Below, in pieces: positions 8,396-47,838 of a DNA stretch of 64,000 nucleotides. Where the stretch lies: NCBI GenBank assembly GCA_019637335.1, contig JAHBVV010000004.1:80471-144470 (forward strand), written 5' to 3'. Every line of letters begins with the position of its first letter. Position 1 is the first letter of the stretch. Source of the DNA: Candidatus Hydrogenedentota bacterium. Lineage in GTDB: Bacteria > Hydrogenedentota > Hydrogenedentia > Hydrogenedentales > JAEUWI01. A model generated the notes under the pieces. The model saw only the letters and a program-made list of their open reading frames with translations, was not told the DNA's origin and did not search any database. The position numbers and the translations under genes were made by a program.

Positions 8396-8469
8396 TATCA
8401 TCTCGGGTTTCCGGCGATCTGCATATGGGGGCTGTCGGTTTACTTAACTTGCCCTACACTATAGAAGGA

Positions 8470-9045
8470 ATGAGCAGGTCCGTCATCCCCGCGAACGCGG
8501 GGATCCAGCGACGCGAACGCACAAACCTCCGAATTCCACTGGATTCCCGCTTTCGCGGGAATGACGCCATAGGGCGTTAGCACAAAACTGTAGGAAATGC
8601 GCTCACCGCACACGTTAAATCGACAGCCCCGGACGCGGGGATCCAGCAACGCGAACGCACAAACCTCCGAATTTCGCTGGATTCCCGCGTTCGCGGGAAT
8701 GACGCTGTAGGGCGTTAGCACAAAATTGTAGGAAATGCGCTCACCGCACACGTTAAACCGACAGCCCCGGACGCGGGGATCCAGCAACGCGATCGCACAA
8801 ACCTCCGAATTCCGCTGGATTCCCGCGTTCGCGGGAATGACGCTGTAGGGCGTTAGCACAAAATTGTAGGTTTTGAGGCATCCGCACCAGTTAAACCGAC
8901 AGCCCCGGACGCGGGGATCCAGCAACGCGATCGCACAAACCTCCGAATTCCGCTGGATTCCCGTGTTCGCGGGAATGACGCTGTAGGGCGTTAGCACAAA
9001 ATTGTAGGTTTTGAAGCATCCGCACCAGCCAAACCGACAGCCCCT
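8470..9045. repeat. tandem repeat, ~137-bp unit x ~4.2 copies, each with a GTCATTCCCGCGAA(A/C)GCGGGAATCCAG-type hairpin
   Basis: Near-identical units start at ~8494, 8631, 8768 and 8905. The 222-aa ORF 8440..9108(-) with its reiterated YSVIPANAGIQRNSEVCA is only a translation of this array. Confidence 0.85.
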
Positions 9046-9344
9046 ATGGCGGGAATGCCATACTTCCCTGTAGTCCGCGGGCCGTACGGCCAGAACTGAA
9101 CCCAACATGACCCGGTCGCCGGGGCCTGTGCGCGCGGGCGGGGATTAGAGGCCGCGAATGAAATAGCGGATGTGGTTGCGCAGGATCTTCAGGTAGCTGA
9201 TGCTGTTGTACATGGGGTCTTCTCCCGGCCCGGCGGGCCTTATTCATTGAGGTATGCGTTACGTATCGTGTTAGCCGGAGGGCCCTCCGCCCGCGCCGGT
9301 CTGTTCGGCCCGGGCGGAGGCCTCCGTGTGATCGGCAATCTGTA

Positions 9345-12868: not shown

Positions 12869-12966
12869 CGCCCTCCACAACGGCTCTCCAAGGGAGCGTC
12901 CCCCAGGCGCTCCCCCCATTGCCCAGGGGCGGTCTCCTTACGGAGGCCGCCCCGCGGGCATATCGG

Positions 12967-13008
12967 GCGGGCGGTGTCCTTCCCCACCGCCCGCCGCGTT
13001 TTTTTGTA
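12967..13008 (+). terminator. rho-independent terminator after glnK
   Basis: ggcgggcggtg-tccttcccc-caccgcccgcc followed by gcgttttttt. Confidence 0.7.
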
Positions 13009-13059
13009 ACACGTTAGCGGTCTGAAGTGCGGAGCAGTTTGTGTTTTTACTAATTGAGC

Positions 13060-13480
13060 CAGTGTGCATGGCGGGCCGCCGGCGCGATCTGCCGGCGGGC
13101 CGCCGGCGCTCCATAGGTGTTATTGCGCCGGTGGCGCAATCTGCCGGCGGGCCGCCGGCGCTCCTTAGGTGTATTGCGCCGGTGACGCAATCTGCCGACG
13201 GGCCGCCGGCGCTCCATAGCTTTATTGCGCCGGTGGCGCAATCTGCCGGCGCGCCGGCGGCGCTCCATAGCTTTATTGCGCCGGTGGCGCAATCTGCCGG
13301 CGGGCCGGCGGCGCTCCATAGGTGTATTGCGCCGGTGGCGCAATCTGCCGGCGCGCCGGCGGCGCTCCATAGGTGTATTGCGCCGGTGGCGCAATCTGCC
13401 GGCGGGCCGCCGGCGCTCCATAGCTTTATTGCGCCGGTGGCGCAATCTGCCGGCGGGCCGCCGGCGCTCCATAGTCCTTA
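13060..13480. repeat. REP/BIME-like tandem array, ~51-bp unit x ~8-9, two palindromes per unit
   Basis: Unit ...ggcgctccatagNtttattgcgccggtggcgcaatctgccggcgggccgcc... Contains hairpins ttgcgcc-ggt-ggcgcaa and gccggcg-ggc-cgccggc. ORFs 13041..13571(+) and 13050..13472(-) are translations of the array. Confidence 0.8.
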
Positions 13481-13539
13481 TTCCGCAAGTCGCTCTGGAT
13501 TGGCCACGCTACGTCGTTCGGCTGAAGTGATACGTTTTT

Positions 13540-14373
13540 TTATCGGCGATTTCGGAACTGGCCGGGCGTGACGCCGGAGAACTTCTTGAAGGCCATGGCG
13601 AAAGCGAACTGGTTGCTGTAGCCCACGAGGTCGGCGATGACGCCGATGGGCACATCGTGCATGATCAGGAGTTCCTGGGCGCGCTCCATCCGGAGCCGGG
13701 TGACCATTTTCATGGGCGATGTGTTCTGGGTTTCCCGCACGAGCCGGTGGAAGTGCGATGTTGAGAGCCCCATTTCGTGGGCCAGGCTCTCGACGGTCCA
13801 GGGCCGCTTCAGATCTTTGCTGACCTTGTCCCAGGTGTGGTTGAGCAGGTTCTGCAGGTCCGTGTCCGCCTCTTCGTCGTGCGCGCCCAGCTCGCGGTGG
13901 ATGTACAGGGCGATCAGCTCGATGTAGAGCGCCGCCGCCTTTTGCGCGGTGGGGCCGCGGCCGCGCGATTCGCGCAGGAAATCCACGGTAAGGCGTTCAA
14001 GCGGCGGCGTCATCACGGTCTTTCGAACCGTCACGGGCCGGGCATGAAGATGCCGCCAGCGTTCCGTGTCGGGCAGGTGAAACCAGATGAAGCGCCAGCG
14101 ATCGGTCCGGGGTTGGTATCCGAACGGCGCGCCCGCCTGCACGATCAGGAGTTGTTCGCGGGCAATCTCCCACTCACGGCTCGCGTTGTACACCTCGCCC
14201 TCCCCCTCAAGGGAATAGAGCAGCAGATGGAATCGCGGCGAACGGCGCTCCAGATGGTAGCCCGTGAAGGCTTCGGTTATGCCCGCTTCGGCGATGTCGG
14301 CCGCCCCTTCTCCGCTGGCCGACTTCGCGCGCCACGGAAAGAAGTGCTCCTGGCAGCGGGGCGACCACTGCAT
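13540..14373 (-). CDS. AraC-family transcriptional regulator
   Basis: C-terminal AraC HTH (TWTVESLAHEMGLSTSHFHRLVRETQNTSPMKMVTRLRMERAQELL...GYSNQFAFAMAFKKFSGVTPGQFR). Cupin-like N-terminal half. Confidence 0.8.
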   Translation of the reverse strand: MQWSPRCQEHFFPWRAKSASGEGAADIAEAGITEAFTGYHLERRSPRFHLLLYSLEGEGEVYNASREWEIAREQLLIVQAGAPFGYQPRTDRWRFIWFHLPDTERWRHLHARPVTVRKTVMTPPLERLTVDFLRESRGRGPTAQKAAALYIELIALYIHRELGAHDEEADTDLQNLLNHTWDKVSKDLKRPWTVESLAHEMGLSTSHFHRLVRETQNTSPMKMVTRLRMERAQELLIMHDVPIGVIADLVGYSNQFAFAMAFKKFSGVTPGQFRNRR

Positions 14374-14795
14374 GATATCACCGATGGCGCGGGGTCTGGG
14401 CGGTGGAGTCACGGCTGTTGCTCCCGGTTTCTAAGGGTGTGTCCCAGGGGATAAAACGTCATGGTTTCTTGCATTCCTGCCGAAATTGGAACAGTCGGGT
14501 CGCCGGGGCGCTCGCCATCTGCAACGTTCTGGCATTTATTGATTTGCGCCTCGATTGGCCATCCAGAACGGGGTGTCAGTGGCCGGTCTCGATGGTAGTT
14601 TTACAAATATACAAAGTAGCTCTGCCAATTGCAAGGATCCGTAGTGGAGCGTAGATTAAGGAAGTATTATGAATGCGTGTCCGGGCTGTTTCGAATTGGT
14701 CACGGAATTCCGGATACGCAATAATTGGAGACGCGTTGGAAACGCAGTGGCGGCGCGCCTCGAACCGGAATACGTAAGGGAAAGGAAAGAGAGTC

Positions 14796-15803
14796 ATGAG
14801 GAGAAAAGGTTTTACGCTTATTGAATTGCTGGTGGTCATCGCCATCATCGGCATTCTGGCGGCCATCCTGTTGCCGGCCCTGGCGCGCGCGCGCGAGGCC
14901 GCACGGCGGGCCAGTTGCCAGAACAACCTCAAGCAGTGGGGCCTGGTGCTCAAGATGTACGCCAACGAGTCCCAGGGGGAAAAGTGGCCGGATATCGACT
15001 ACTGGAGCATCAAGGATGCGAGCTTCATTGCGAGCCTCGCGCCGAACTTCACCGTGTGGCCGATGGGCCAGGGCCCGCGCGGGATCGCGATTTATCCGGA
15101 TTACCTGACGGATCTGAACATCAATAAGTGCCCGAGCTCCGGGAATCGCACGGGCTGGGCCGGCTGGACCCTCCCCTATCCCGAGGGCGAATCGGCGGAA
15201 CACTGCCACGAGGAGAACAGCTGGTTTCTCACGGTGGTGGACGACGCCACGGGCGAAGTCGGCACTGTCGACTGGGGTAACCCCAACAGCCCCTGCAACA
15301 ACGGCCGCTACTTCGTGAACAACTACCCCGGCTACATGTACCTGTCCAAACTCTTCCGGCCCGAATGGTTCAACGACGCGAACAACTGCCTGTACATTCA
15401 CGACGTGCTTGACGACGATGTGCCGACGGTCACCCGAATCGGCAGCTGGATCGACAAGGACGCGCGGCTGACACTGCCGACGCCGCTGGCGGACGGCACA
15501 ACCAGCGTGACCGCGCTGCACCTCCGCGAAGGTGTTGAGCGCTTCATGATCACGGATATCAACAACCCCGGCGCCTCCGCCAAGGCCCAGAGCGAGGTTC
15601 CGGTCATGCTTGACCGCGCCGCGTCCAACAACAACGGGCGAATCAGCAGCGCCTCCTTCACGCACGTGCCGGGCGGCGCCAACATCCTGTACATGGACGG
15701 GCATGCCCGCTTTGTAAGATACCCGGCCACGCAGGCCAACGAATTCCCCCTCTCGGAGAATTTTGTTCGCTACGTAAGCGTGAACGTGGGCACGGCTGGC
15801 TGA
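14796..15803 (+). CDS. DUF1559 / H-X9-DG protein with prepilin-type N-terminal cleavage-methylation domain
   Basis: [47 protein letters not shown], then C-terminal DGHARFV. Family hallmark of Planctomycetota. Confidence 0.85.
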
Positions 15804-15824
15804 TACGCGGCAGGATCGCATTGC

Positions 15825-15875
15825 TTCCCGTATGGCGCGGGAGACCCTGGTTGGCAGGGTCTCCCGCGCGTTTTT
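15825..15875 (+). terminator. rho-independent terminator
   Basis: gcgcgggagaccctg-gttgg-cagggtctcccgcgc + T9. Confidence 0.75.
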
Positions 15876-15904
15876 TTTTGGGGTGAAGTTCTGATAGTGC
15901 CGCG

Positions 15905-16050
15905 TCCGGACTGTGGGGTAGCATTTTAGCGGTCTGACGTGCGAAACAGTATGTGTTATTACGAGTGGAGTTGGTGGGCATGGAGCGCCGGCAGGGCGCC
16001 CGCGCTCCATGGTTGAATCAGCCGGCGGGCCGCCGGCGCTCTCATTGGTC
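15905..16050. repeat. REP-like element: conserved 5' motif plus GC-rich hairpins, partial copy of the 13.0-kb and 47.5-kb family
   Basis: tagcattttagcggtctgacgtgcgaaacagtatgtgtt...ggcgggccgccggcgctc. Confidence 0.4.
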
Positions 16051-16270
16051 CGCGCTTCCTTTGTGATGCCGGGCTCGTTGGGAGATGCCGGCTCCCATTG
16101 CCGCGGACACGAATGTCCGCGATCCTTTGATTCACGCTCTCTTGTCCGAGACATGCTTTCACGCCGGGGGGCTTCATTCCGCCAATGTGTTACTTCCTGT
16201 TTATTGTTGGAACTGCTCCCCTTCTTTATGGGCGGTGTTGGGGCGCGGGGGCCCGGCCGACGATCCGGGG

Positions 16271-16299
16271 CTTGACAACGGGGGAGATAATCCCTATAA
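16271..16299 (+). promoter_or_regulatory. consensus sigma70 promoter with overlapping imperfect palindrome, candidate Rrf2 operator
   Basis: TTGACA-N17-TATAAT exactly. taattccgctaggaattta dyad between -10 and the ATG at 16321. Confidence 0.55.
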
Positions 16300-16320
16300 T
16301 TCCGCTAGGAATTTATTATT

Positions 16321-33856: not shown

Positions 33857-34051
33857 TTATTCGATCGCGATGACTTCCAAGGATTCGGCCAGCGCGCTGT
33901 CCGAGGGCGCGAAGGCGCACTGCGTCATGGGACAAGTGGCCCGACCGGCGGTGTGATTGTCCATAAACCACCGGTGGGCGGCGTCGTGGTGAAGGTGAGT
34001 AGGCCTGGCAAGCGCCAGCAGAACGTTCACGTCGAGCAGGGCGACGCTCAA
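33857..34051 (-). pseudogene. vapC: truncated VapC (PIN-domain toxin), N-terminal 64 aa only
   Basis: MSVALLDVNVLLALARPTHLHHDAAHRWF is a PIN N-terminus. The ORF stops after 64 aa where an intact VapC needs ~130. The next gene starts ~55 bp later. Confidence 0.5.
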
Positions 34052-34278
34052 TCCTCTTCCTCGACCCGATGCATGTCCTCAATCGAAATGGGACGCGCCC
34101 CCGGGGCCACCCGGAACATGGGAAACCCCGTTTCGGGCCGCCGGTCAAATTCGGTCGTGGACGCAAGCCCCTGCCGCGCCAGATCGGTAAGAACCCGGCC
34201 AAGAGACACGGACCTTGCCCGCGCGAGTTCGCGCGCTACTTCCAGCAAGTCGTCATCTATAGTTACCGTGGTCTTCAT
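34048..34278 (-). CDS. vapB: VapB-family antitoxin
   Basis: MKTTVTIDDDLLEVARELARARSVSLGRVL. ATGA overlap with the vapC remnant. Confidence 0.65.
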   Translation of the reverse strand: MKTTVTIDDDLLEVARELARARSVSLGRVLTDLARQGLASTTEFDRRPETGFPMFRVAPGARPISIEDMHRVEEED

Positions 34279-34600
34279 AGTTGTAACACTTTAGCCGTAT
34301 GAAATGGCGCCAGCCCATTCTTGTCATGCCGCGATACTACGACGAGAGCGCGCAAGGCTGGGAGCGCAGGCGTCCCCGCCTGCAATGCACCAGAGGTGCA
34401 TGGCGTGTTGGCAATATCGGCACATTTGATCGGGGAGACGATCATACCCGAACTACCGCTGTTTAACAGATTCGCGCCTCCGGCGCGTTGCGGGCGGGCC
34501 GCCCGCGCTCCCATTCGTCCGCACTTCCGTTGCGGCGCAGGATTGTGTCGTCGAGGAATCAAGCCAGCTTCATTCCGCTAGAAGATTACTCATAGTTCAA
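34265..34600 (+). repeat. ~330-bp ORF-less repeated element, copy 1 (second copy at 46905-47240)
   Basis: ~90% identical to 46905-47240 in the same orientation. Begins ttgtaacactttagccgtatgaaat. Track ORFs on both strands inside it are not conserved as proteins between the copies. Confidence 0.7.
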
Positions 34601-38366: not shown

Positions 38367-41250
38367 CCAAGCCACTATCGATAGAGCTGTCGACCTTATC
38401 GGCAAGGGCTATAGTCAATACGATTATTTCTTTTCAAATTTATCCTCACCGGAGTGGATTCTTCCGCTTCGAGAAAAGGGCTTTTTCTCCAACCCACTTT
38501 CAACAATCCGAAGAGACGGGAGCGAATACTGGCTTCGTTGGCCGGAGTCTCGGTACTTGGCACGAATAGCCGCATCAGGACCCCAAGAAGTTCTTACCGC
38601 CTTCCAAGGAATTCCAAAAACGGACAACCCATTCATTCACGCAGACATCGTAGAAGCAGCCCTCAAGATCCCAGCAGATATGGCTGCACCGTTGACAAGA
38701 ATAGAATGTGAGTGGTTGAAGACGCAAAGCTACCTAGGCACATTTGCTGAGGATTATGGAGCTTTGATTTCCCATCTTGCGAAAGGTGGTGAGGTCACGC
38801 AGGCGTTAGAGTTTGCACAGGTATTGCTCGATATTATACCGGATCCAAGATTTGTAGATGCCGATGTGAACTCTGATGCTGATGCCGACGCCGAGTTTGG
38901 AATTCCCTCCTCCCCGCGCCCCAAGCCGAGGCTTCGAGATTGGTACGAAAAAGTGCTAGGGACCAATGTGCCGGACTTGGTGGCAGTGGCAGGTATCGAT
39001 TCTGTGAGGCTGTTTTCCAACCTCCTGGCGAAGGCAATAAGGCTTTCACACAGAGATCCGAGCTCTCTCCAGCCGAACGACCATTTGGACTTTCAATTGC
39101 CGAATCTGGAGGAGCTCGATGAAGTATCCAGAGGAGACACCAGGGTTCTACTCGCGAAGACCTTGCTTCAAGTAGTCGAGCAGGCTGTGTCCCAAAACCT
39201 AAACAATCTTGCAAAGGTACTAGAGATTCTAGATTCCAACAATTGGAATATCTTCACTCGCATTGCTCTGTATACATTGACAAGAGTAACCGAATCAGTT
39301 CCTGCTCTCTGCAGAAGATACGTACTCGATCCAAAGTTATTCCAAAATGGTGGGATTGAGAGCGAATACTTCAACCTTTTGCAAGGCTCTCTTGCATCGA
39401 TGTCTAAAGACGAGCGCAATACTCTTTTTCGCTGGATTCAGAACGGCCCGCCCGACTTGCCGGCCTATATGTCGGACGGTCAGGAGGAGAAAGAAAGATA
39501 TGTCAAATCTTGGAAGTGTCGCCGCTATCACGTCTGCCGAGAACATATTTTTGGAGAATACGAAGTTGAGTACAGTCGACTCCTCGAAGAAGTAGGCTCG
39601 GAAGGTACCGCTACCTTTCAGAGGCCACCGAAGATTTGCCATACATGGTTCGGACCACTTGGCCCTTGCACGCCCGAAGAGCTTGGTGAGCGCACTGACG
39701 CGGAAATCATTCAATATATATCCACGTGGATACCGAAGAGCAATTTGATGGAGCCTACTATAGAGGGGTTGGCTCGTACGCTCAGAACCGCTGTCGAACG
39801 CGATGGTCAGAGATTTTCGCAGATGGCCGAACAATTAATTGAGCTCGATCCGACCTATGTTCGGGCGTTATTTGGAGGACTTGAAAATGCCATCAAGAAA
39901 GCGTCCTACATCACTTGGGGAGCAGTACTGAAACTGGCTCAGTGGGTTGTGGAGAAGCATGGAGACGAACCTGATACGGACGACTATACTGGAGATCGTG
40001 ACCCCGGGTGGAGTTGGACTCGAAAGCGCATTGCGTCACTGCTTGAGACTGGGCTCAACCCATGCGAGTCGGAGATACCGTTCGAGCATCGCCAGGATGT
40101 TTGGGTTGTTCTAGAGACACTCTGTGAAGACTCTGACCCAACGCCCGAGTACGAAGCAGAATATGGGGGAACGAATATGGGGCCAATAAATCTATCCCTC
40201 AACGTCGTCCGAGGCCGGGCAATCAGCGCCGCCATTGGTTATGCGTTGTGGGTCAAACGGCATCGTCTGGCCGGCCTAGAAGAGGACGGAGCCGCCGTCA
40301 GCTGGGTTGAGCAGATACCAGAGGTGTTTTCCGTCTTGGAATGTCACCTGGACCCCAAAAAGGACCCCTCACCCGCGATACGCTCAAACTATGGGCAGTA
40401 TATTCCGCAACTCATTTGGCTAGATGAGGGGTGGACAAGAGCTAATGTATCGAACATCTTTGGGATCAGCAGAAGAACTACTCTCGAGGAAAGCGCATGG
40501 AGTGCCTTCATGTATTTCTGCCAACCAAGCACTAAATTACTCGGTGTACTCGCACCAGTCTATCGATACGCGGTCGAGCATCTGGCCCCATCACCTGATG
40601 AGAACGCTGACGGCTTCGACCAGGGCGCAAGACTTGGGCAGCACCTAATCACCTACTACGTATGGGGAATACTGGAGAACGCCAATATCGAGGGCATGCT
40701 GTCTCAATTTTTCAAGAATGCAGAAGACCGGCTAAGAAGCGAAGCCATTGACTATGCAGGCGAATTCTCTAACGGGTGCCCGGAGGACGAACTGCCCAAA
40801 TTGAAAAGTCGTCTCATGCATCTTTGGCGTGACAGACGAAAGATTATTGACGATGCTCCTGATGTTGACAAGTACAAAGAGGAAATCTCCGCATTTGGAT
40901 CTTGGTTCGTTTCCGATGCATTTGAAGAAGACTGGGCATTGGATCAACTGGTTTGGGCCTTGCAGTCCTCAAAGAAAGTTCGTTCCGCTCACCTAGTTGT
41001 GAAGAGGCTTTCCAATTGCTCGGATCAAGACTTACCTGCGGCACTGATTTGCTTGAAATCAATGATGGAAGGAGATGAGCAGGGGTGGGAAATCTCCAGC
41101 TGGCGAAAAGATGTAAAGCGCTTGTTGCGGAAGTGTCTTGATAGCGAGTCTCAAGACTTGTCAGCGCGAGCCGAGAACGTCATTCACTGGTTGGGTGCTC
41201 GAGGCTTGTCGGAATATCGAAGTCTTCTTACCAAAGCAGACTCGCCATAG
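38350..41250 (+). CDS. large (966 aa) hypothetical protein, no recognisable motifs, low-GC island
   Basis: Stop-free ORF overlapping the upstream gene by 17 bp. Mostly helical composition. No P-loop or nuclease motif recognised by eye. Confidence 0.6.
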   Translation: MNQMINQATIDRAVDLIGKGYSQYDYFFSNLSSPEWILPLREKGFFSNPLSTIRRDGSEYWLRWPESRYLARIAASGPQEVLTAFQGIPKTDNPFIHADIVEAALKIPADMAAPLTRIECEWLKTQSYLGTFAEDYGALISHLAKGGEVTQALEFAQVLLDIIPDPRFVDADVNSDADADAEFGIPSSPRPKPRLRDWYEKVLGTNVPDLVAVAGIDSVRLFSNLLAKAIRLSHRDPSSLQPNDHLDFQLPNLEELDEVSRGDTRVLLAKTLLQVVEQAVSQNLNNLAKVLEILDSNNWNIFTRIALYTLTRVTESVPALCRRYVLDPKLFQNGGIESEYFNLLQGSLASMSKDERNTLFRWIQNGPPDLPAYMSDGQEEKERYVKSWKCRRYHVCREHIFGEYEVEYSRLLEEVGSEGTATFQRPPKICHTWFGPLGPCTPEELGERTDAEIIQYISTWIPKSNLMEPTIEGLARTLRTAVERDGQRFSQMAEQLIELDPTYVRALFGGLENAIKKASYITWGAVLKLAQWVVEKHGDEPDTDDYTGDRDPGWSWTRKRIASLLETGLNPCESEIPFEHRQDVWVVLETLCEDSDPTPEYEAEYGGTNMGPINLSLNVVRGRAISAAIGYALWVKRHRLAGLEEDGAAVSWVEQIPEVFSVLECHLDPKKDPSPAIRSNYGQYIPQLIWLDEGWTRANVSNIFGISRRTTLEESAWSAFMYFCQPSTKLLGVLAPVYRYAVEHLAPSPDENADGFDQGARLGQHLITYYVWGILENANIEGMLSQFFKNAEDRLRSEAIDYAGEFSNGCPEDELPKLKSRLMHLWRDRRKIIDDAPDVDKYKEEISAFGSWFVSDAFEEDWALDQLVWALQSSKKVRSAHLVVKRLSNCSDQDLPAALICLKSMMEGDEQGWEISSWRKDVKRLLRKCLDSESQDLSARAENVIHWLGARGLSEYRSLLTKADSP

Positions 41251-41259
41251 CGAATCGTC

Positions 41260-42360
41260 ACCCGTTCCCAAGCTCTGTTTCGAAGCCTATGTCGCCCCTC
41301 CGGGACTTATGTGGCGGGGATGGGCCTTGATCCCAGGACTTGCTTCGCTGCGCCCTGGGCTACGATATGCCGCCACTTCGTGGCTAAGAAATGTTATTCA
41401 CTCATTCCCAGGCTCCGCTTGGGAGTGCAGTTCCCGAAGCTCCGCTTCGAAGGGCCGTAACGCGTCTGTGTCGCCCCTCCGGGACTTATGGGGCGGGGAT
41501 GGGTCTTGATCCCAGGACTTGCTTCGCTGCGCCCTGGGCTACGATATGCCGCCACTTCGTGGCTAAACCGGCGCTCGACGTCCAGTTGCTGGTGAGTGGT
41601 CGAGAGATTACGCTCTGGCCTACAGCACGCCCTGATGGGAGCCGTACCCCCAACCGAACGGCCAGCGCAGGAATCCGCGCCGAGGGGTCGCATTGCGGAA
41701 ACCATGCGCTGCCCACACGCCCATCCCCCATGGAGGCCAACGCAAGAATCAGTCGCGAGGCAGCGCCATATACACTCGTTCCCAGGCTCCGCTTGGGAAT
41801 GCAGTCCCCCAAGCTCTGCTTCGGAGGGCCGCAACGCGCCTATGTCGCCCCTCCGGGACTTATGGGGTGGGGATGGGCCTTGATCCCAGGACTTGCTTCG
41901 CTGCGCCCTGGGCTACGTTATGCCGCCACTTCGTGGCTAAGAGATGGTCGTGGCGGGGCACCCACAAGCCTTTGCGGCGAAGCCGCAGAGCTTGAGGGTG
42001 GCACCCTCGGGCTGCCGATGGTGATTGCGGTCGGGGTTGCGCTCGAGAACCGGGTTTATGATGTGAGGCTTGGATTCTGCTGGCGACTCCGGTGGGGAAA
42101 TACCCCTTGAACCTGGCTGTGCGACATTCCGCGCGATCGTACGCCACGGTCGACGGGGCCTGGGTGCATCAGGGCTATCGATCGGGGTACGTCCCTTCGC
42201 GCCTTCCCCCGCTCTGCTTAGAAACGCGGACCCCGAAGGGTCGCAATGCGGAAACCATACTCGGCCCACACCCCGTCACCCAAGGGGGCCAACGCAAGAA
42301 TCAGTCGCGAGGCGGCGCCATATCGTAGCCCAGTGGCGAGCGTAGCGAGTCCTGGGTCAC
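41260..42360. repeat. REP array, ~95-bp unit (cgcccctccgggacttatggggcggggatgggccttgatcccaggacttgcttcgctgcgccctgggctacgNtatgccgccacttcgtggct) in both orientations, plus a second ~150-bp repeat
   Basis: Units at ~41281, 41468, 41841, and inverted partial ones at 41390 and 42300-42360. The gcattgcggaaaccat...ggccaacgcaagaatcagtcgcgaggc segment is repeated at 41690 and 42240. Confidence 0.75.
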
Positions 42361-42414
42361 CCGCGCACAGCGCCTAAGAAAGTCCCAACGGGGCGGCATA
42401 GGCCCCGCGTCCGT

Positions 42415-42867
42415 TCAGTCCCAGATGTACTGCGGATCGTATTCCACCTCGTGGGCTTTCAAGAATCCCAGGTACTCCGCCTTAAACGTGTATTTGGCGT
42501 GATGGACCTCCTGGTTCTGGACGTATCGATAAACGGTTTCCTTCTGGCTCGCACTCACGGTGAAGGCGCCGTAGCCCGCCTGCCACGCGAAATCGGAGAG
42601 CGCCGGCCAGGTGCGGTGAATCCAGCCGGAGCTGTTGGATTTGATTTCGGACAGTACGTTCTTGAGTGCGTGGTTCTGGCTCAATTTCACCAGAAGGTGA
42701 ACGTGGTCTTCGGTGCCGTTGATGATGAGGGGGATGCCGTCCACGCCCTGCACCGCGCCCGCGAGGTAGCGGTGCACGTCCCCGCGCAGATTGGGCGTAA
42801 GAAATCGTACGCGGCCCTTGGTAGAAAAGACAAGGTGGTAGATGAGATTGCAGTGTGTCTGTGACAT
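42415..42867 (-). CDS. REP-associated tyrosine transposase (RAYT), IS200/IS605 Y1 family
   Basis: LIYHLVFSTKGRVRFL, HVHLLV (HxH) and the C-terminal Y in VYRYVQNQ. Flanked by REPs on both sides in both orientations. Confidence 0.85.
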   Translation of the reverse strand: MSQTHCNLIYHLVFSTKGRVRFLTPNLRGDVHRYLAGAVQGVDGIPLIINGTEDHVHLLVKLSQNHALKNVLSEIKSNSSGWIHRTWPALSDFAWQAGYGAFTVSASQKETVYRYVQNQEVHHAKYTFKAEYLGFLKAHEVEYDPQYIWD

Positions 42868-42924
42868 GGTGGCCTCCCGTGATGTGCGCCATTGCAGTAT
42901 AGTGTTGTTTTTGGAGTTTACCGA

Positions 42925-43100
42925 TGGGAGGAGGCGTGAATCCAGAACGCGCCTATGTCGCCCCTCCGGGACTTATGGGGCGGGGATGGGCCTTGATCCC
43001 AGGACTTGCTTCGCTGCGCCCTGGGCTACGTTATGCCGCCACTTCGTGGCTAGGAAATGCTATTCGATGGCCCAGTGGCGAGCGAAGCGAGTCCCCTCCC
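42925..43100. repeat. REP copy plus inverted partial copy on the right flank of the RAYT
   Basis: Same 95-bp unit at 42955-43050, then an inverted fragment cccagtggcgagcgaagcgagtcc. Confidence 0.6.
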
Positions 43101-44161: not shown

Positions 44162-44250
44162 GGGGAATGGCAGGGACTGCAGGGACATCAGGGACTGCAG
44201 GGACGGCAGGGACGGCAGGGACTGCAGGGACGGCAGGGACTACAGGGACG
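44162..44250. repeat. 9-bp microsatellite (R-GCAGGGAC)n, ~10 units
   Basis: ggcagggactgcagggacatcagggactgcagggacggcagggac..., immediately after the stop at 44153. Confidence 0.8.
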
Positions 44251-46768: not shown

Positions 46769-46904
46769 GATTTCGATCCCCAGTATGTTATGGTTTCCCA
46801 CCAATCTGACGGCAGCATATCCGAATTCGCCCGTGGCCGGCAAGCCGGTTGATTGCCAGGGCAATCGCATTTAGACTTCCAATTTCAGCCGAGCGCCCTA
46901 TGAA

Positions 46905-47240
46905 GCACCTTCAAAGTTAGGTAACACTTTAGCCGTATGAAATAGCGCCAGCCCATTCTTGTCATGCCGCGACACTACGACGAGAGCGCGCAAGGCTGGG
47001 AGCGCAGGCGTCCCCGCCTGCAATGCACCGGAGGTGCATGGCGCGTTTGCAATATCGGCACACTTGATCGGCGAGAGAATTGGAGCCGGACTACCGCTGA
47101 TTAGCAGACTCGCGCCTCCGGCGCGTTGCGGGCGGGCCGCCCGCGCTCCCATTCGTCCGCACTTCCGTTGCGGCGCGGGATTGTATCGTCGAGGAATCAA
47201 GCCAGCTTCATTCCGCTAAAGAATTACTCTGTTAAAAAGG
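46905..47240 (+). repeat. ~330-bp ORF-less repeated element, copy 2
   Basis: See 34265-34600. Confidence 0.7.
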
Positions 47241-47454
47241 GCGCGTGTTGGAGCGCTGGCATTTCGCCTGCGGCGAATCCCTGACCTTGCCGGCACAGAT
47301 GCCGGCGCTCCAAAACGCTCACTATCGTTGATTCAAGGTTCCGAATCGACTCAAGTTTACGCCCATATACCGAAATCGAGTTGAAATGCGATTGCCCTGG
47401 GTTGATTGCGGTGCGCCCGGCGTCTCCGCCGCGCGCGGGGCGCCCCACTTTTCT

Positions 47455-47660
47455 TGTAACACTTTAGCGGTCTGAAGTGCGGAACAGTATGTGTTCTTAC
47501 TAATGGAGCCGGCGCTCTCTAGCTGAATTGCGCCTGCGGCGCAATCTGCCGGCGCTCTGCAGTTGTATTGCGCCTGCGGCGCAATGCCGGCGGGCCGCCG
47601 GCGCTCCATAGTTGCAAGTCGCTTTGGATTGGCCACCGTACTTCGTTCGGCTAAAGTGAT
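47455..47660. repeat. REP-like element of the 13.0-kb family: conserved 5' motif, ttgcgcc-tgc-ggcgcaa hairpins, conserved 3' tail
   Basis: ttgtaacactttagcggtctgaagtgcggaacagtatgtgtt ... aagtcgctttggattggccaccgtacttcgttcggctaaagtgatac. Compare 13000-13560. Confidence 0.6.
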
Positions 47661-47838
47661 ACCTTTTCTTGAATTCCCGCGCCGGAATTGCCTGATTTGC
47701 CCGGCATGCGTTCCTGTCCGACATAAGTGGGAAAGAACGAAAATATTCGTGGCAATTCCGGGCGTCGCATGCTAAACTTAATCCGTGTGGCGAGGATGAG
47801 ATTTTGAGGGCTTGGGGTAGCGGCGCGGAGGAAGCAGC

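What the first reader, a model, noticed from the sequence alone, without database searches (positions are those of the whole stretch)
13000..13560. Family of terminator-adjacent elements sharing a 40-nt 5' motif and GC-rich hairpin tandem arrays
At 13004, 15908 and 47455 the motif (t)tgtaacac-ttagcggtctga(a/c)gtgcg(g/a)a(g/a)cagt(t/a)tgtgtt follows a rho-independent terminator or T-run. It is followed by 1-9 tandem 51-bp units carrying ttgcgccNNNggcgcaa and gccggcgggccgccggc hairpins. The 13.0-kb and 47.5-kb copies also share a 3' tail aagtcgctNtggattggccac...gttcggctNaagtgatac. A related head (gtaacactttagccgtatgaaat) opens the 330-bp element. This is REP/BIME-like, but the conserved unpaired head and tail suggest a defined RNA or a transposition substrate.
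Basis: seen in the sequence. Interest (0 to 1): 0.5.

Follow-up and report, generated by a model that had tools for sequence, protein, structure and literature searches.

The report
Small IS66-type jumping elements with hairpin arrays
The repeated "head, hairpin array, tail" sequences are five copies of a small non-coding jumping-gene remnant (a MITE) that is moved by a transposase of the IS66 family, which is an ordinary kind of bacterial genome parasite and not a new RNA gene or a REP/RAYT system.

Summary
The 32-nt head core occurs three times (13014, 15926, 47464; none expected by chance), and a related head occurs at 34283 and 46921.

This defines five bounded elements:
- E1 13006-13533
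- E2 15918-16193
- E3 34283-34589
- E4 46921-47227
- E5 47456-47662

E1, E3 and E5 are flanked by perfect 8-bp direct duplications of the target: GTTTTTTT, TCATAGTT and CTTTTCTT.

The same about 23-nt terminal repeat (GTAACACTTTAGCSG.CTGAAGT) bounds 1525-1537-bp elements in Hydrogenedentota MAGs and an unnamed 7.9-Mb assembly. These also have 8-bp duplications and a single ORF with IS66-family transposase domains. The same genomes carry many 150-365-bp transposase-less derivatives.

Related strains (92-96% identical) have an exact empty site where E3 sits.

These are therefore MITEs of an IS66-family (single-ORF, ISBst12-like) insertion sequence. The 51-bp hairpin array in E1 is an internal expansion, comparable to boxB arrays in pneumococcal BOX elements. 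Adjacency to terminators reflects insertion into AT-rich 8-mers. The Y1 transposase at 42.4 kb has its own, unrelated repeats.

Verdict: ordinary, a new member of a known kind.

The parts
13006..13533 (+). E1: 528-bp MITE. Left end and head 13006-13069. Partial hairpin unit 13070-13087. Seven 51/52-bp two-hairpin units 13088-13445. Truncated eighth unit 13446-13474. Tail and right end 13485-13533.
   Evidence: Inverted ends found. Array from TRF and the unit table. The same insertion is present at the orthologous site in related Logan contigs L121 and L122.
12998..13005 (.). Left copy of the E1 target-site duplication, GTTTTTTT. This is the T-run of the terminator after the P-II (glnB-like) gene.
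   Evidence: perfect 8-bp match.
13534..13541 (.). Right copy of the E1 target-site duplication, GTTTTTTT. It overlaps the stop codon of the convergent AraC-family gene (13540-14412, minus strand).
15918..16193 (+). E2: 276-bp chimeric MITE. Its head is of the E1/E5 type and its tail is of the E3/E4 type, joined at the shared hairpin. It has no target duplication.
34283..34589 (+). E3: 307-bp MITE of the second subfamily. It lies 4 nt upstream of the start codon of a vapB-like gene (34048-34278, minus strand).
   Evidence: The empty site is seen in L123, L124 and L126, and the occupied site in L125.
34275..34282 (.). Left copy of the E3 target-site duplication, TCATAGTT.
34590..34597 (.). Right copy of the E3 target-site duplication, TCATAGTT.
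46921..47227 (+). E4: 307-bp MITE, 93% identical to E3, with no clean target duplication.
   Evidence: (family D4).
47456..47662 (+). E5: 207-bp MITE. It has the same head and tail as E1 but only 2.2 copies of a 40-nt unit plus one GCCGGCGGGCCGCCGGC hairpin.
   Evidence: Its left end is identical over 24 nt to an end of the full-length IS in L048.
47448..47455 (.). Left copy of the E5 target-site duplication, CTTTTCTT.
47663..47670 (.). Right copy of the E5 target-site duplication, CTTTTCTT.

Best explanation
[quoted passage not shown] They are short, non-coding, non-autonomous derivatives of an insertion sequence of the IS66 family, of the single-ORF type known as the ISBst12 group.

Shown:
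- Each element is bounded by about 23-27-nt imperfect terminal inverted repeats that begin GTAACACTTTAGCSG.
- Three of the five are flanked by perfect 8-bp duplications of the target.
- One site (E3) is occupied in some related strains and empty in others.
- The same terminal repeat bounds 1.5-kb elements that encode an IS66-family DDE transposase, and many short derivatives, in other genomes.

Inferred:
- An IS66-family transposase encoded elsewhere in the source genome (none lies in this window) binds the two ends in trans. It inserts the element with 8-bp staggered cuts, preferring AT-rich 8-mers. In a 63% GC genome such sites are concentrated in intergenic T-runs such as terminator tails.
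- The interior is cargo with no role in transposition. It consists of GC-rich hairpin modules that expanded in E1 to about 8 tandem 51-bp units by replication slippage or unequal recombination.
- Recombination between copies at the shared hairpin produced the chimeric E2 and erased its target duplication.
For: Ends and duplications in the window:
- Ten TIR matches in the window form exactly five head-to-tail inverted pairs.
- The 8-bp duplications at E1, E3 and E5 were verified by script at the exact TIR boundaries.

The same ends in other genomes:
- The genome-collection scan with the TIR returned at least 120 loci, mostly from Hydrogenedentota, Planctomycetota and Desulfobacterota (deltaproteobacterial) MAGs.
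- Among 43 inverted TIR pairs, 16 have perfect 8-bp duplications at offset 0. None do at offsets 1-5.
- Full-length elements are L015 4389-5925, L048 2069-3593 and L078 6016-7543. They are 1525-1537 bp, have perfect 8-bp duplications, and carry one 480-489-aa ORF.
- That ORF matches Pfam DDE_Tnp_IS66 (1.8e-39 and 3.5e-40) plus zf-IS66, and NCBIfam transpos_IS66 at 274.6 bits against a cut-off of 180.
- One L048 end, GTAACACTTTAGCGGTCTGAAGTG, is identical 24/24 to the left end of E5.
- Full-length and miniature copies coexist in single genomes: CAXXTH01, OW818658.1 and JBIJDL01.

Mobility:
- Empty site for E3: contigs from three sequencing runs (92-96% identical to the window) read GGTCT-TCATGGAT-TAAC. 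That is one copy of the 8-bp target and no element, exactly 315 bp shorter.

Agreement with published IS66-family features:
- An experimentally transposing ISBst12-group element (ISDge4) has TIR GTAACTGCTCAGCA, a single 449-aa transposase and an 8-bp duplication (PMC12898284).
- Canonical IS66 ends are GTAAGCG... or GTAACCG... (PMC12888890).
Against: - No IS66-family transposase lies in the 64-kb window (tblastn). I could not examine the rest of the source genome, so the partner in this organism is inferred and not shown.
- E2 and E4 lack target duplications.
- Only the terminal 23-24 nt are shared with the full-length elements. The subterminal head (CGGAACAGTATGTGTT...) has no counterpart in any fetched IS, so the immediate parent was not found.
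- The empty allele differs from the reconstructed target at 3 of 9 bases. That is more than the flank average, though the strains are 4-8% diverged.
- E1 is retained at the same site in a 94-97% identical relative, so it is old. A secondary host function for it is not excluded.
Confidence: 0.9

Rival explanations
1. REP/BIME-like palindromic elements, spread by the Y1 (RAYT/IS200-like) transposase at 42.4 kb, which would recognise the GC-rich hairpins as single-stranded DNA.
For: The interiors are GC-rich hairpins in tandem, as in BIMEs. A real Y1_Tnp gene is in the window.
Against: - Y1 transposition creates no target duplication and needs no terminal inverted repeats. These elements have both.
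- The hairpins never occur outside TIR-bounded elements in the window.
- The Y1 gene is flanked by its own four 172-nt repeats carrying the Acido-Lenti-1 motif, which are unrelated in sequence.
- The TIR is that of IS66-family elements.
Confidence: 0.03
2. A family of structured non-coding RNA genes, or 3'UTR-derived RNAs, with a conserved 5' head, repeated protein-binding hairpins and a conserved 3' tail, each placed after a terminator.
For: E1 folds far better than shuffles (z = -6.9). E1 is conserved at the same site in a relative. All five copies are in the + orientation.
Against: - No Rfam family matches, even at E <= 1, apart from meaningless long-hairpin plant microRNA-precursor hits far below threshold.
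- No promoter-like site lies at any head.
- The strong fold is what inverted ends plus palindromic repeats give by construction.
- Target duplications, the empty site and the shared IS ends explain both the dispersal and the 'head and tail'.
- The copies differ wildly in their interiors (1 to 8 units, chimeras).
- Five of five in one orientation has a two-sided probability of 1/16.
- Read-through transcription of a MITE is possible, but it would be secondary.
Confidence: 0.05
3. MITEs, but moved by a different DDE family that also makes 8-bp duplications (for example ISL3, IS1595, IS256 or IS6), with the match to IS66 ends being coincidental.
For: Several IS families give 8-bp duplications (general knowledge of IS families). 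The partner was not seen in the source genome.
Against: A 24/24 identity between a MITE end and the end of an element whose only ORF is an IS66-family transposase. Three independent full-length copies have the same TIR and 8-bp duplications. Ends starting GTAA are the IS66-family signature.
Confidence: 0.02

Closest known systems
IS66-family insertion sequences, single-ORF ISBst12 group (for example ISDge4), and their miniature derivatives
   Same: - Ends begin GTAAC. ISDge4 has GTAACTGCTCAGCA and these elements have GTAACACTTTAGCG, which is 9 of 14 identical.
- The target duplication is 8 bp.
- Full-length relatives with the same TIR are about 1.5 kb and carry one transposase with zf-IS66 and DDE_Tnp_IS66 domains.
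   Different: - The window copies carry no transposase.
- The partner transposase clade is only 27-28% identical to annotated IS66-family transposases on plasmids.
- It is found in Hydrogenedentota, Planctomycetota and Desulfobacterota MAGs, not in the well-studied hosts.
- My limited literature search did not turn up a named IS66-derived MITE with an internal tandem array.
BOX elements of Streptococcus pneumoniae and S. suis (boxA - boxB(n) - boxC)
   Same: - The architecture is modular: a conserved head, a variable number of tandem internal hairpin modules and a conserved tail.
- BOX sizes range from 67 to 637 bp. They have MITE-like ends resembling those of an IS, and array length varies with copy.
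- In S. suis, alternative head/tail pairs flank the same internal module, as with the two head and tail types and the chimeric E2 here (PMC3049150).
   Different: - I did not compare the sequences directly, and the hosts and base composition differ (BOX in AT-rich Firmicutes, these in a 63% GC genome).
- Here the target duplication and the transposase family can be assigned.
REP/BIME elements with RAYT transposases
   Same: GC-rich imperfect palindromes in tandem, located in intergenic regions, often after genes.
   Different: REP/BIME elements have no terminal inverted repeats and no target duplication, and they are tied to a Y1 enzyme. These elements have TIRs and 8-bp duplications. The local Y1 gene has different repeats.
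Other bacterial MITEs (Correia, ERIC, Nezha, MITEPsy1)
   Same: Short, TIR-bounded, folded, intergenic elements whose ends match an IS in the same or related genomes. Mobility in trans has been demonstrated for MITEPsy1 (PMC3189936).
   Different: The transposase families and duplication lengths differ (for example 4 bp for MITEPsy1). None of the descriptions I read mentions an 8-unit internal array.

Membership tests
Bacterial MITE (non-autonomous TIR element) | Terminal inverted repeats at both ends | tested here: met
   All five elements have them. There are 20-25 matches in the first 45 nt, concentrated in the first about 23 nt.
Bacterial MITE (non-autonomous TIR element) | Direct duplication of the target at the exact element boundaries | tested here: met
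   A perfect 8 bp at E1, E3 and E5, and absent at E2 and E4. In the wider set, 16 of 43 pairs are perfect at offset 0 and none at offsets 1-5.
Bacterial MITE (non-autonomous TIR element) | Short, with no transposase gene | tested here: met
   The elements are 207-528 bp. tblastn with the IS66 transposase against the window gives nothing better than E = 1.2. The ORFs across E1 are stop-free repeat artefacts.
Bacterial MITE (non-autonomous TIR element) | Presence/absence polymorphism with a precise empty site | tested here: met
   E3 is absent from L123, L124 and L126, which carry one copy of the target. It is present in the window and in L125.
Bacterial MITE (non-autonomous TIR element) | Ends shared with an autonomous IS in the same genome | not testable with these tools
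   Shown in three other genomes. Only 64 kb of the source genome is available, and it has no partner.
IS66 family / ISBst12 group (as the mobilising partner) | Ends begin GTAA and the target duplication is 8 bp | tested here: met
   The family features are taken from PMC12898284 and PMC12888890 and from general knowledge of the ISfinder family table.
IS66 family / ISBst12 group (as the mobilising partner) | A transposase with the DDE_Tnp_IS66 domain lies between the same TIRs, as a single ORF without the TnpA/TnpB accessory genes | tested here: met
   L015 and L048 each have one 480-489-aa ORF in 1.5 kb, confirmed by Pfam and NCBIfam. L078 has the same length and ends, but its ORF was not examined.
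IS66 family / ISBst12 group (as the mobilising partner) | The transposase binds and moves these particular ends | not testable with these tools
   This needs a biochemical or genetic assay.
REP/BIME with RAYT | Dispersed palindromes without TIRs or target duplications, related in sequence to the repeats flanking a Y1 transposase | tested here: not met
   TIRs and duplications are present. The hairpins occur only inside TIR-bounded elements. The repeats flanking the Y1 gene are unrelated.
Any curated RNA family (Rfam 15) | A covariance-model match at or near the gathering score | tested here: not met
   No match in 12900-16300 at E <= 1. In 46850-47750 there are only plant microRNA-precursor hits at 21-36 bits against cut-offs of 100-124.
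BOX elements | A head, a variable tandem internal module and a tail, with IS-like ends | tested here: met
   The architecture matches (PMC3049150). This is a resemblance in design, not membership. Sequence relatedness was not tested.

The most novel reading that the evidence does not exclude
The two-hairpin module carried by these MITEs has been co-opted. E1 places about 8 tandem 51-bp hairpin units directly behind the amtB-glnB terminator, and it is retained at that site in a 94-97% identical relative. The array could act as a protein-binding platform, a bidirectional transcription insulator or an RNA-stabilising 3' structure between the convergent glnB and araC-family genes. In that case array length would be under selection, not slippage noise.
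Probability: 0.06. Interest if true: 0.4.

Novelty: new member of a known kind. Interest (0 to 1): 0.2.

Why it matters
The result mainly removes a false lead. The 'terminator-adjacent RNA or REP family' is a MITE family with an identifiable transposase family.

It has modest practical value:
- It defines a widespread, apparently undescribed clade of single-ORF IS66-family elements and their MITEs in Hydrogenedentota, Planctomycetota and Desulfobacterota MAGs. The TIR consensus is GTAACACTTTAGCSG.CTGAAGT.
- It explains why short-read assemblies of this organism break at these sites (L121, L122 and L125 end inside elements).
- It gives a polymorphic strain marker in E3.
- It adds a GC-rich counterpart to the modular BOX architecture.

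Tried and rejected
- Metagenome scan for the subfamily-specific head (AGCGGTCTGAMGTGNGRANCNGTWTGTGTT): 0 hits.
- Metagenome scan for relatives of the AraC-family neighbour, to find an empty E1 site: none.
- Exact-protein look-ups for neighbours of E2, E5 and E1 (the Rrf2, 218-aa, DUF1559 and AraC proteins): not on record.
- The BNR-protein contig L127 is 100% identical to the window but ends 28 bp before E4, so it is uninformative.
- Looked for the two hairpin modules in the 127 fetched loci: none. The interior is specific to this lineage, and only E3/E4 interiors have weak relatives, in L107.
- Tested whether insertion next to strong hairpins is a rule for the family: it is not. Only E1 and E5 of 17 insertions are in the 1st percentile. 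I therefore dropped 'terminator targeting' in favour of a preference for AT-rich targets (61% against 42% AT).
- Tested whether long internal tandem arrays are common in MITEs with this TIR: only E1, and weakly E5, of 38.
- Considered an excision footprint to explain the 3 substitutions at the empty E3 site. I rejected it as unnecessary because the strains are 4-8% diverged and the site length is exact.
- Considered CRISPR-like arrays and rejected them, because the units abut without spacers.
- I did not run the large protein-database searches. They could not be restricted to the source organism and would not change the verdict.

Full report
**1. The observation**

Reading the three sites shows the shared head. 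The 32-nt core TTAGCGGTCTGAMGTGCGRARCAGTWTGTGTT matches at 13014, 15926 and 47464, all on the + strand, with none expected in shuffles. The related head GTAACACTTTAGCCGTATGAAAT occurs at 34283 and 46921. The shared tail occurs at 13487 and 47616.

The two hairpin motifs occur 13 and 9 times, always on the + strand and only inside these elements. TRF reports 7.7 copies of a 51-bp unit at 13081-13474 with 94% matches, and 2.2 copies of a 40-nt unit at 47508-47592. A unit table shows seven complete 51/52-bp units in E1, each made of hairpin GCCGGCG-GGC-CGCCGGC, a linker, and hairpin ATTGCGCC-GGT-GGCGCAAT. A truncated eighth unit follows.

- The second copy starts at 15918, not 15908.
- Only E1 has a 51-bp array.
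- The '330-bp' element is 307 bp.

**2.

A degenerate search with the first 21 nt of the head finds matches on the minus strand at the far end of every element. The ten matches pair up into five bounded elements:
- E1 13006-13533 (528 bp)
- E2 15918-16193 (276 bp)
- E3 34283-34589 (307 bp)
- E4 46921-47227 (307 bp)
- E5 47456-47662 (207 bp)

A script comparing the 8 nt outside each boundary finds perfect direct duplications for three of them. E1 has GTTTTTTT, E3 has TCATAGTT and E5 has CTTTTCTT. E2 and E4 have none.

Terminal inverted repeats plus a fixed-length target duplication are the signature of insertion by a DDE transposase. For E1 the duplicated 8-mer is the T-run of the intrinsic terminator behind the P-II gene (stem 12966-12995). 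That is why the element looks 'terminator-adjacent'.

**3. Which transposase**

Ends that begin GTAA and an 8-bp duplication point to the IS66 family. I tested this by scanning one genome per species of the GTDB collection with the TIR pattern. At least 120 loci matched, mostly MAGs of Hydrogenedentota, Planctomycetota and Desulfobacterota.

Pairing inverted TIR matches in these loci gives two size classes. Many elements are 150-365 bp. A second class is 1525-1537 bp: L015, L048, L078, L025, L049 and L039. L015, L048 and L078 have perfect 8-bp duplications.

L015 and L048, the two I examined, each hold a single 480-489-aa ORF. It has Pfam DDE_Tnp_IS66 (1.8e-39 and 3.5e-40) and zf-IS66 domains. 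It also matches NCBIfam 'IS66 family transposase' at 274.6 bits against a cut-off of 180.

One end of the L048 element, GTAACACTTTAGCGGTCTGAAGTG, is identical over all 24 nt to the left end of E5.

As a control, 16 of 43 TIR pairs have perfect 8-bp flanks at the boundary. None do when the flanks are displaced by 1-5 nt.

Full-length and miniature copies coexist in the same genomes: CAXXTH01, OW818658.1 and JBIJDL01. A single ORF in about 1.5 kb corresponds to the ISBst12 group of the family. A transposing member of that group, ISDge4, has TIR GTAACTGCTCAGCA, a 449-aa transposase and an 8-bp duplication (PMC12898284). Canonical IS66 ends are GTAAGCG... or GTAACCG... (PMC12888890).

The partner clade is distant from annotated plasmid IS66 transposases, at 27-28% identity.

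**4. Evidence of mobility in this lineage**

Exact-protein look-ups retrieved contigs from public sequencing runs that are 92-97% identical to the window, and one that is 100% identical.

At the E3 site, three contigs (L123, L124, L126) read GGTCT-TCATGGAT-TAACTTT. That is one copy of the 8-bp target and no element, exactly 315 bp shorter than the window. A fourth contig (L125) is occupied and ends inside the element. The empty allele differs from the reconstructed target at three bases, which is acceptable for intergenic DNA of strains 4-8% diverged.

E1 is present at the same site with the same duplication in L121 and L122. Those contigs stop as the array begins, the usual assembly break at a repeat. 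There the head is only 87.5% identical, while the two contigs as a whole are 94-97% identical to the window.

**5. Interior and modularity**

No IS66 transposase fragment lies in the window, so all five copies are non-autonomous.

There are two head types: E1, E2 and E5 share one, and E3 and E4 share the other. There are also two tail types: E1 and E5 share one, and E2, E3 and E4 share the other. All five contain the hairpin GCSGGCGGGCCGCCSGCGCTC.

E2 has the first head joined to the second tail at that hairpin. Recombination between two copies would explain both the chimera and its missing duplication. That step is inferred.

Among 38 short elements with this TIR, only E1, and weakly E5, carry a sizeable tandem array. 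The array is therefore a local expansion and not a family trait. The hairpin modules are absent from all fetched loci of other genomes.

E1 folds much better than shuffles (z = -6.9), with head paired to tail. Inverted ends and palindromic units produce that result by construction.

**6. Target choice**

The duplicated 8-mers are 61% A+T against 42% for their loci. Only E1 and E5 lie beside unusually stable hairpins (1st percentile). The other 15 insertions tested do not. The family therefore prefers AT-rich 8-mers, and terminator tails are simply where such sites occur in a 62.6% GC genome.

All five window copies are intergenic:
- E1 lies between the convergent P-II and AraC-family genes.
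- E2 lies between a DUF1559 protein gene and an Rrf2 regulator gene.
- E3 lies between the divergent vapB-like and rhamnosidase genes.
- E4 and E5 lie between a BNR-repeat protein gene and a 218-aa gene.

**7. Rivals**

REP/BIME with a RAYT:
- The Y1 transposase at 42415-42867 is genuine.
- It is embedded in four copies of a 172-nt repeat, each carrying the Rfam Acido-Lenti-1 motif. Those hairpins are unrelated to the ones in these elements.
- Y1 transposition gives neither TIRs nor duplications.

A structured RNA gene:
- There is no Rfam match at E <= 1, apart from meaningless long-hairpin hits.
- No promoter-like sites lie at the heads.
- Expression could not be tested.

**8. Comparison with known systems and verdict**

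In mechanism these are MITEs of an IS66-family element. In architecture they most resemble pneumococcal and S. suis BOX elements. Those have boxA, a variable tandem boxB array and boxC, span 67-637 bp, and can have alternative end modules around a shared internal module (PMC3049150).

This is a new member of a known kind. It is useful for annotation and as a strain marker, but it is not surprising.

Two things remain open. The parent IS in the source genome was not found. Whether the E1 array has acquired a host function is also unknown.

Noticed in passing
window 41216-43053: Four copies of a roughly 172-nt repeat surround a 150-aa Y1_Tnp (IS200-like) gene at 42415-42867 (minus strand). Each copy ends in a hit to the Rfam 'sRNA' family Acido-Lenti-1 (RF01687; 41332, 41511, 41885 and 42998, all + strand, 39.6-40.1 bits). 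This suggests the Acido-Lenti-1 motif is a REP-like or IS200-type DNA/RNA hairpin tied to a Y1 transposase, not a free-standing sRNA.
   Followed up: partly
window 41680-41771 and 42233-42323: A second repeat pair (86-90% identical, about 92 nt) lies 552 bp apart in the same Y1 transposase neighbourhood (families D12 and D13).
   Followed up: no
window 8495-9008: A tandem repeat of 138 bp, 3.7 copies and 94% matches. It overlaps a 222-aa minus-strand ORF at 8440-9108 that may be a repeat artefact.
   Followed up: no
window 44170-44249: A 9-bp tandem repeat, GCAGGGACT, with 8.9 copies and 87% matches. It would encode a tripeptide repeat if translated.
   Followed up: no
window 34275-34597: E3 sits 4 nt upstream of the ATG of a 76-aa vapB-like gene, and the duplicated target includes the start codon. 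The insertion moves the native GGAAAG ribosome-binding region and promoter 315 bp away. Expression of this putative antitoxin operon should therefore differ between occupied and empty strains.
   Followed up: partly
window 46909-46920 compared with 34273-34282: The left flank of E4, CTTCAAAGTT(+AG), is 9/10 identical to the left flank of E3, CTTCATAGTT, although E4 has no clean duplication. The random-site frequency is about 1.5e-4. Either the E3/E4 subfamily has a target preference, or E4 was copied together with a few flanking bases.
   Followed up: partly
L121 3480-3559 and L122 1730-1809 compared with window 13006-13085: The orthologous E1 head in related strains is only 87.5% identical, although the contigs as a whole are 94-97% identical and the roughly 145 bp just upstream differ at one base. 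This could reflect faster decay, gene conversion among copies, or assembler mixing of copies.
   Followed up: no
window 46856-46872 and 47384-47400: A perfect 17-nt inverted match, CCAGGGCAATCGCATTT / AAATGCGATTGCCCTGG, brackets E4 and includes the start codon of the BNR-repeat gene. It may be a trace of a local rearrangement (E = 0.002).
   Followed up: no
window 16272-16300: A perfect consensus sigma-70 promoter (TTGACA, 17 nt spacer, TATAAT; 12 of 12) lies upstream of the Rrf2-family regulator gene, 79 bp downstream of E2.
   Followed up: no
L107 2975-3177 and 6257-6447 (Hydrogenedentales MAG JBIJDL01): Several copies of a hairpin-rich segment are 83-89% identical to the interior of E3/E4 (window 34318-34412). 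This is the only sequence link between the MITE interiors and another genome, and it hints that the source organism is related to Hydrogenedentota.
   Followed up: no
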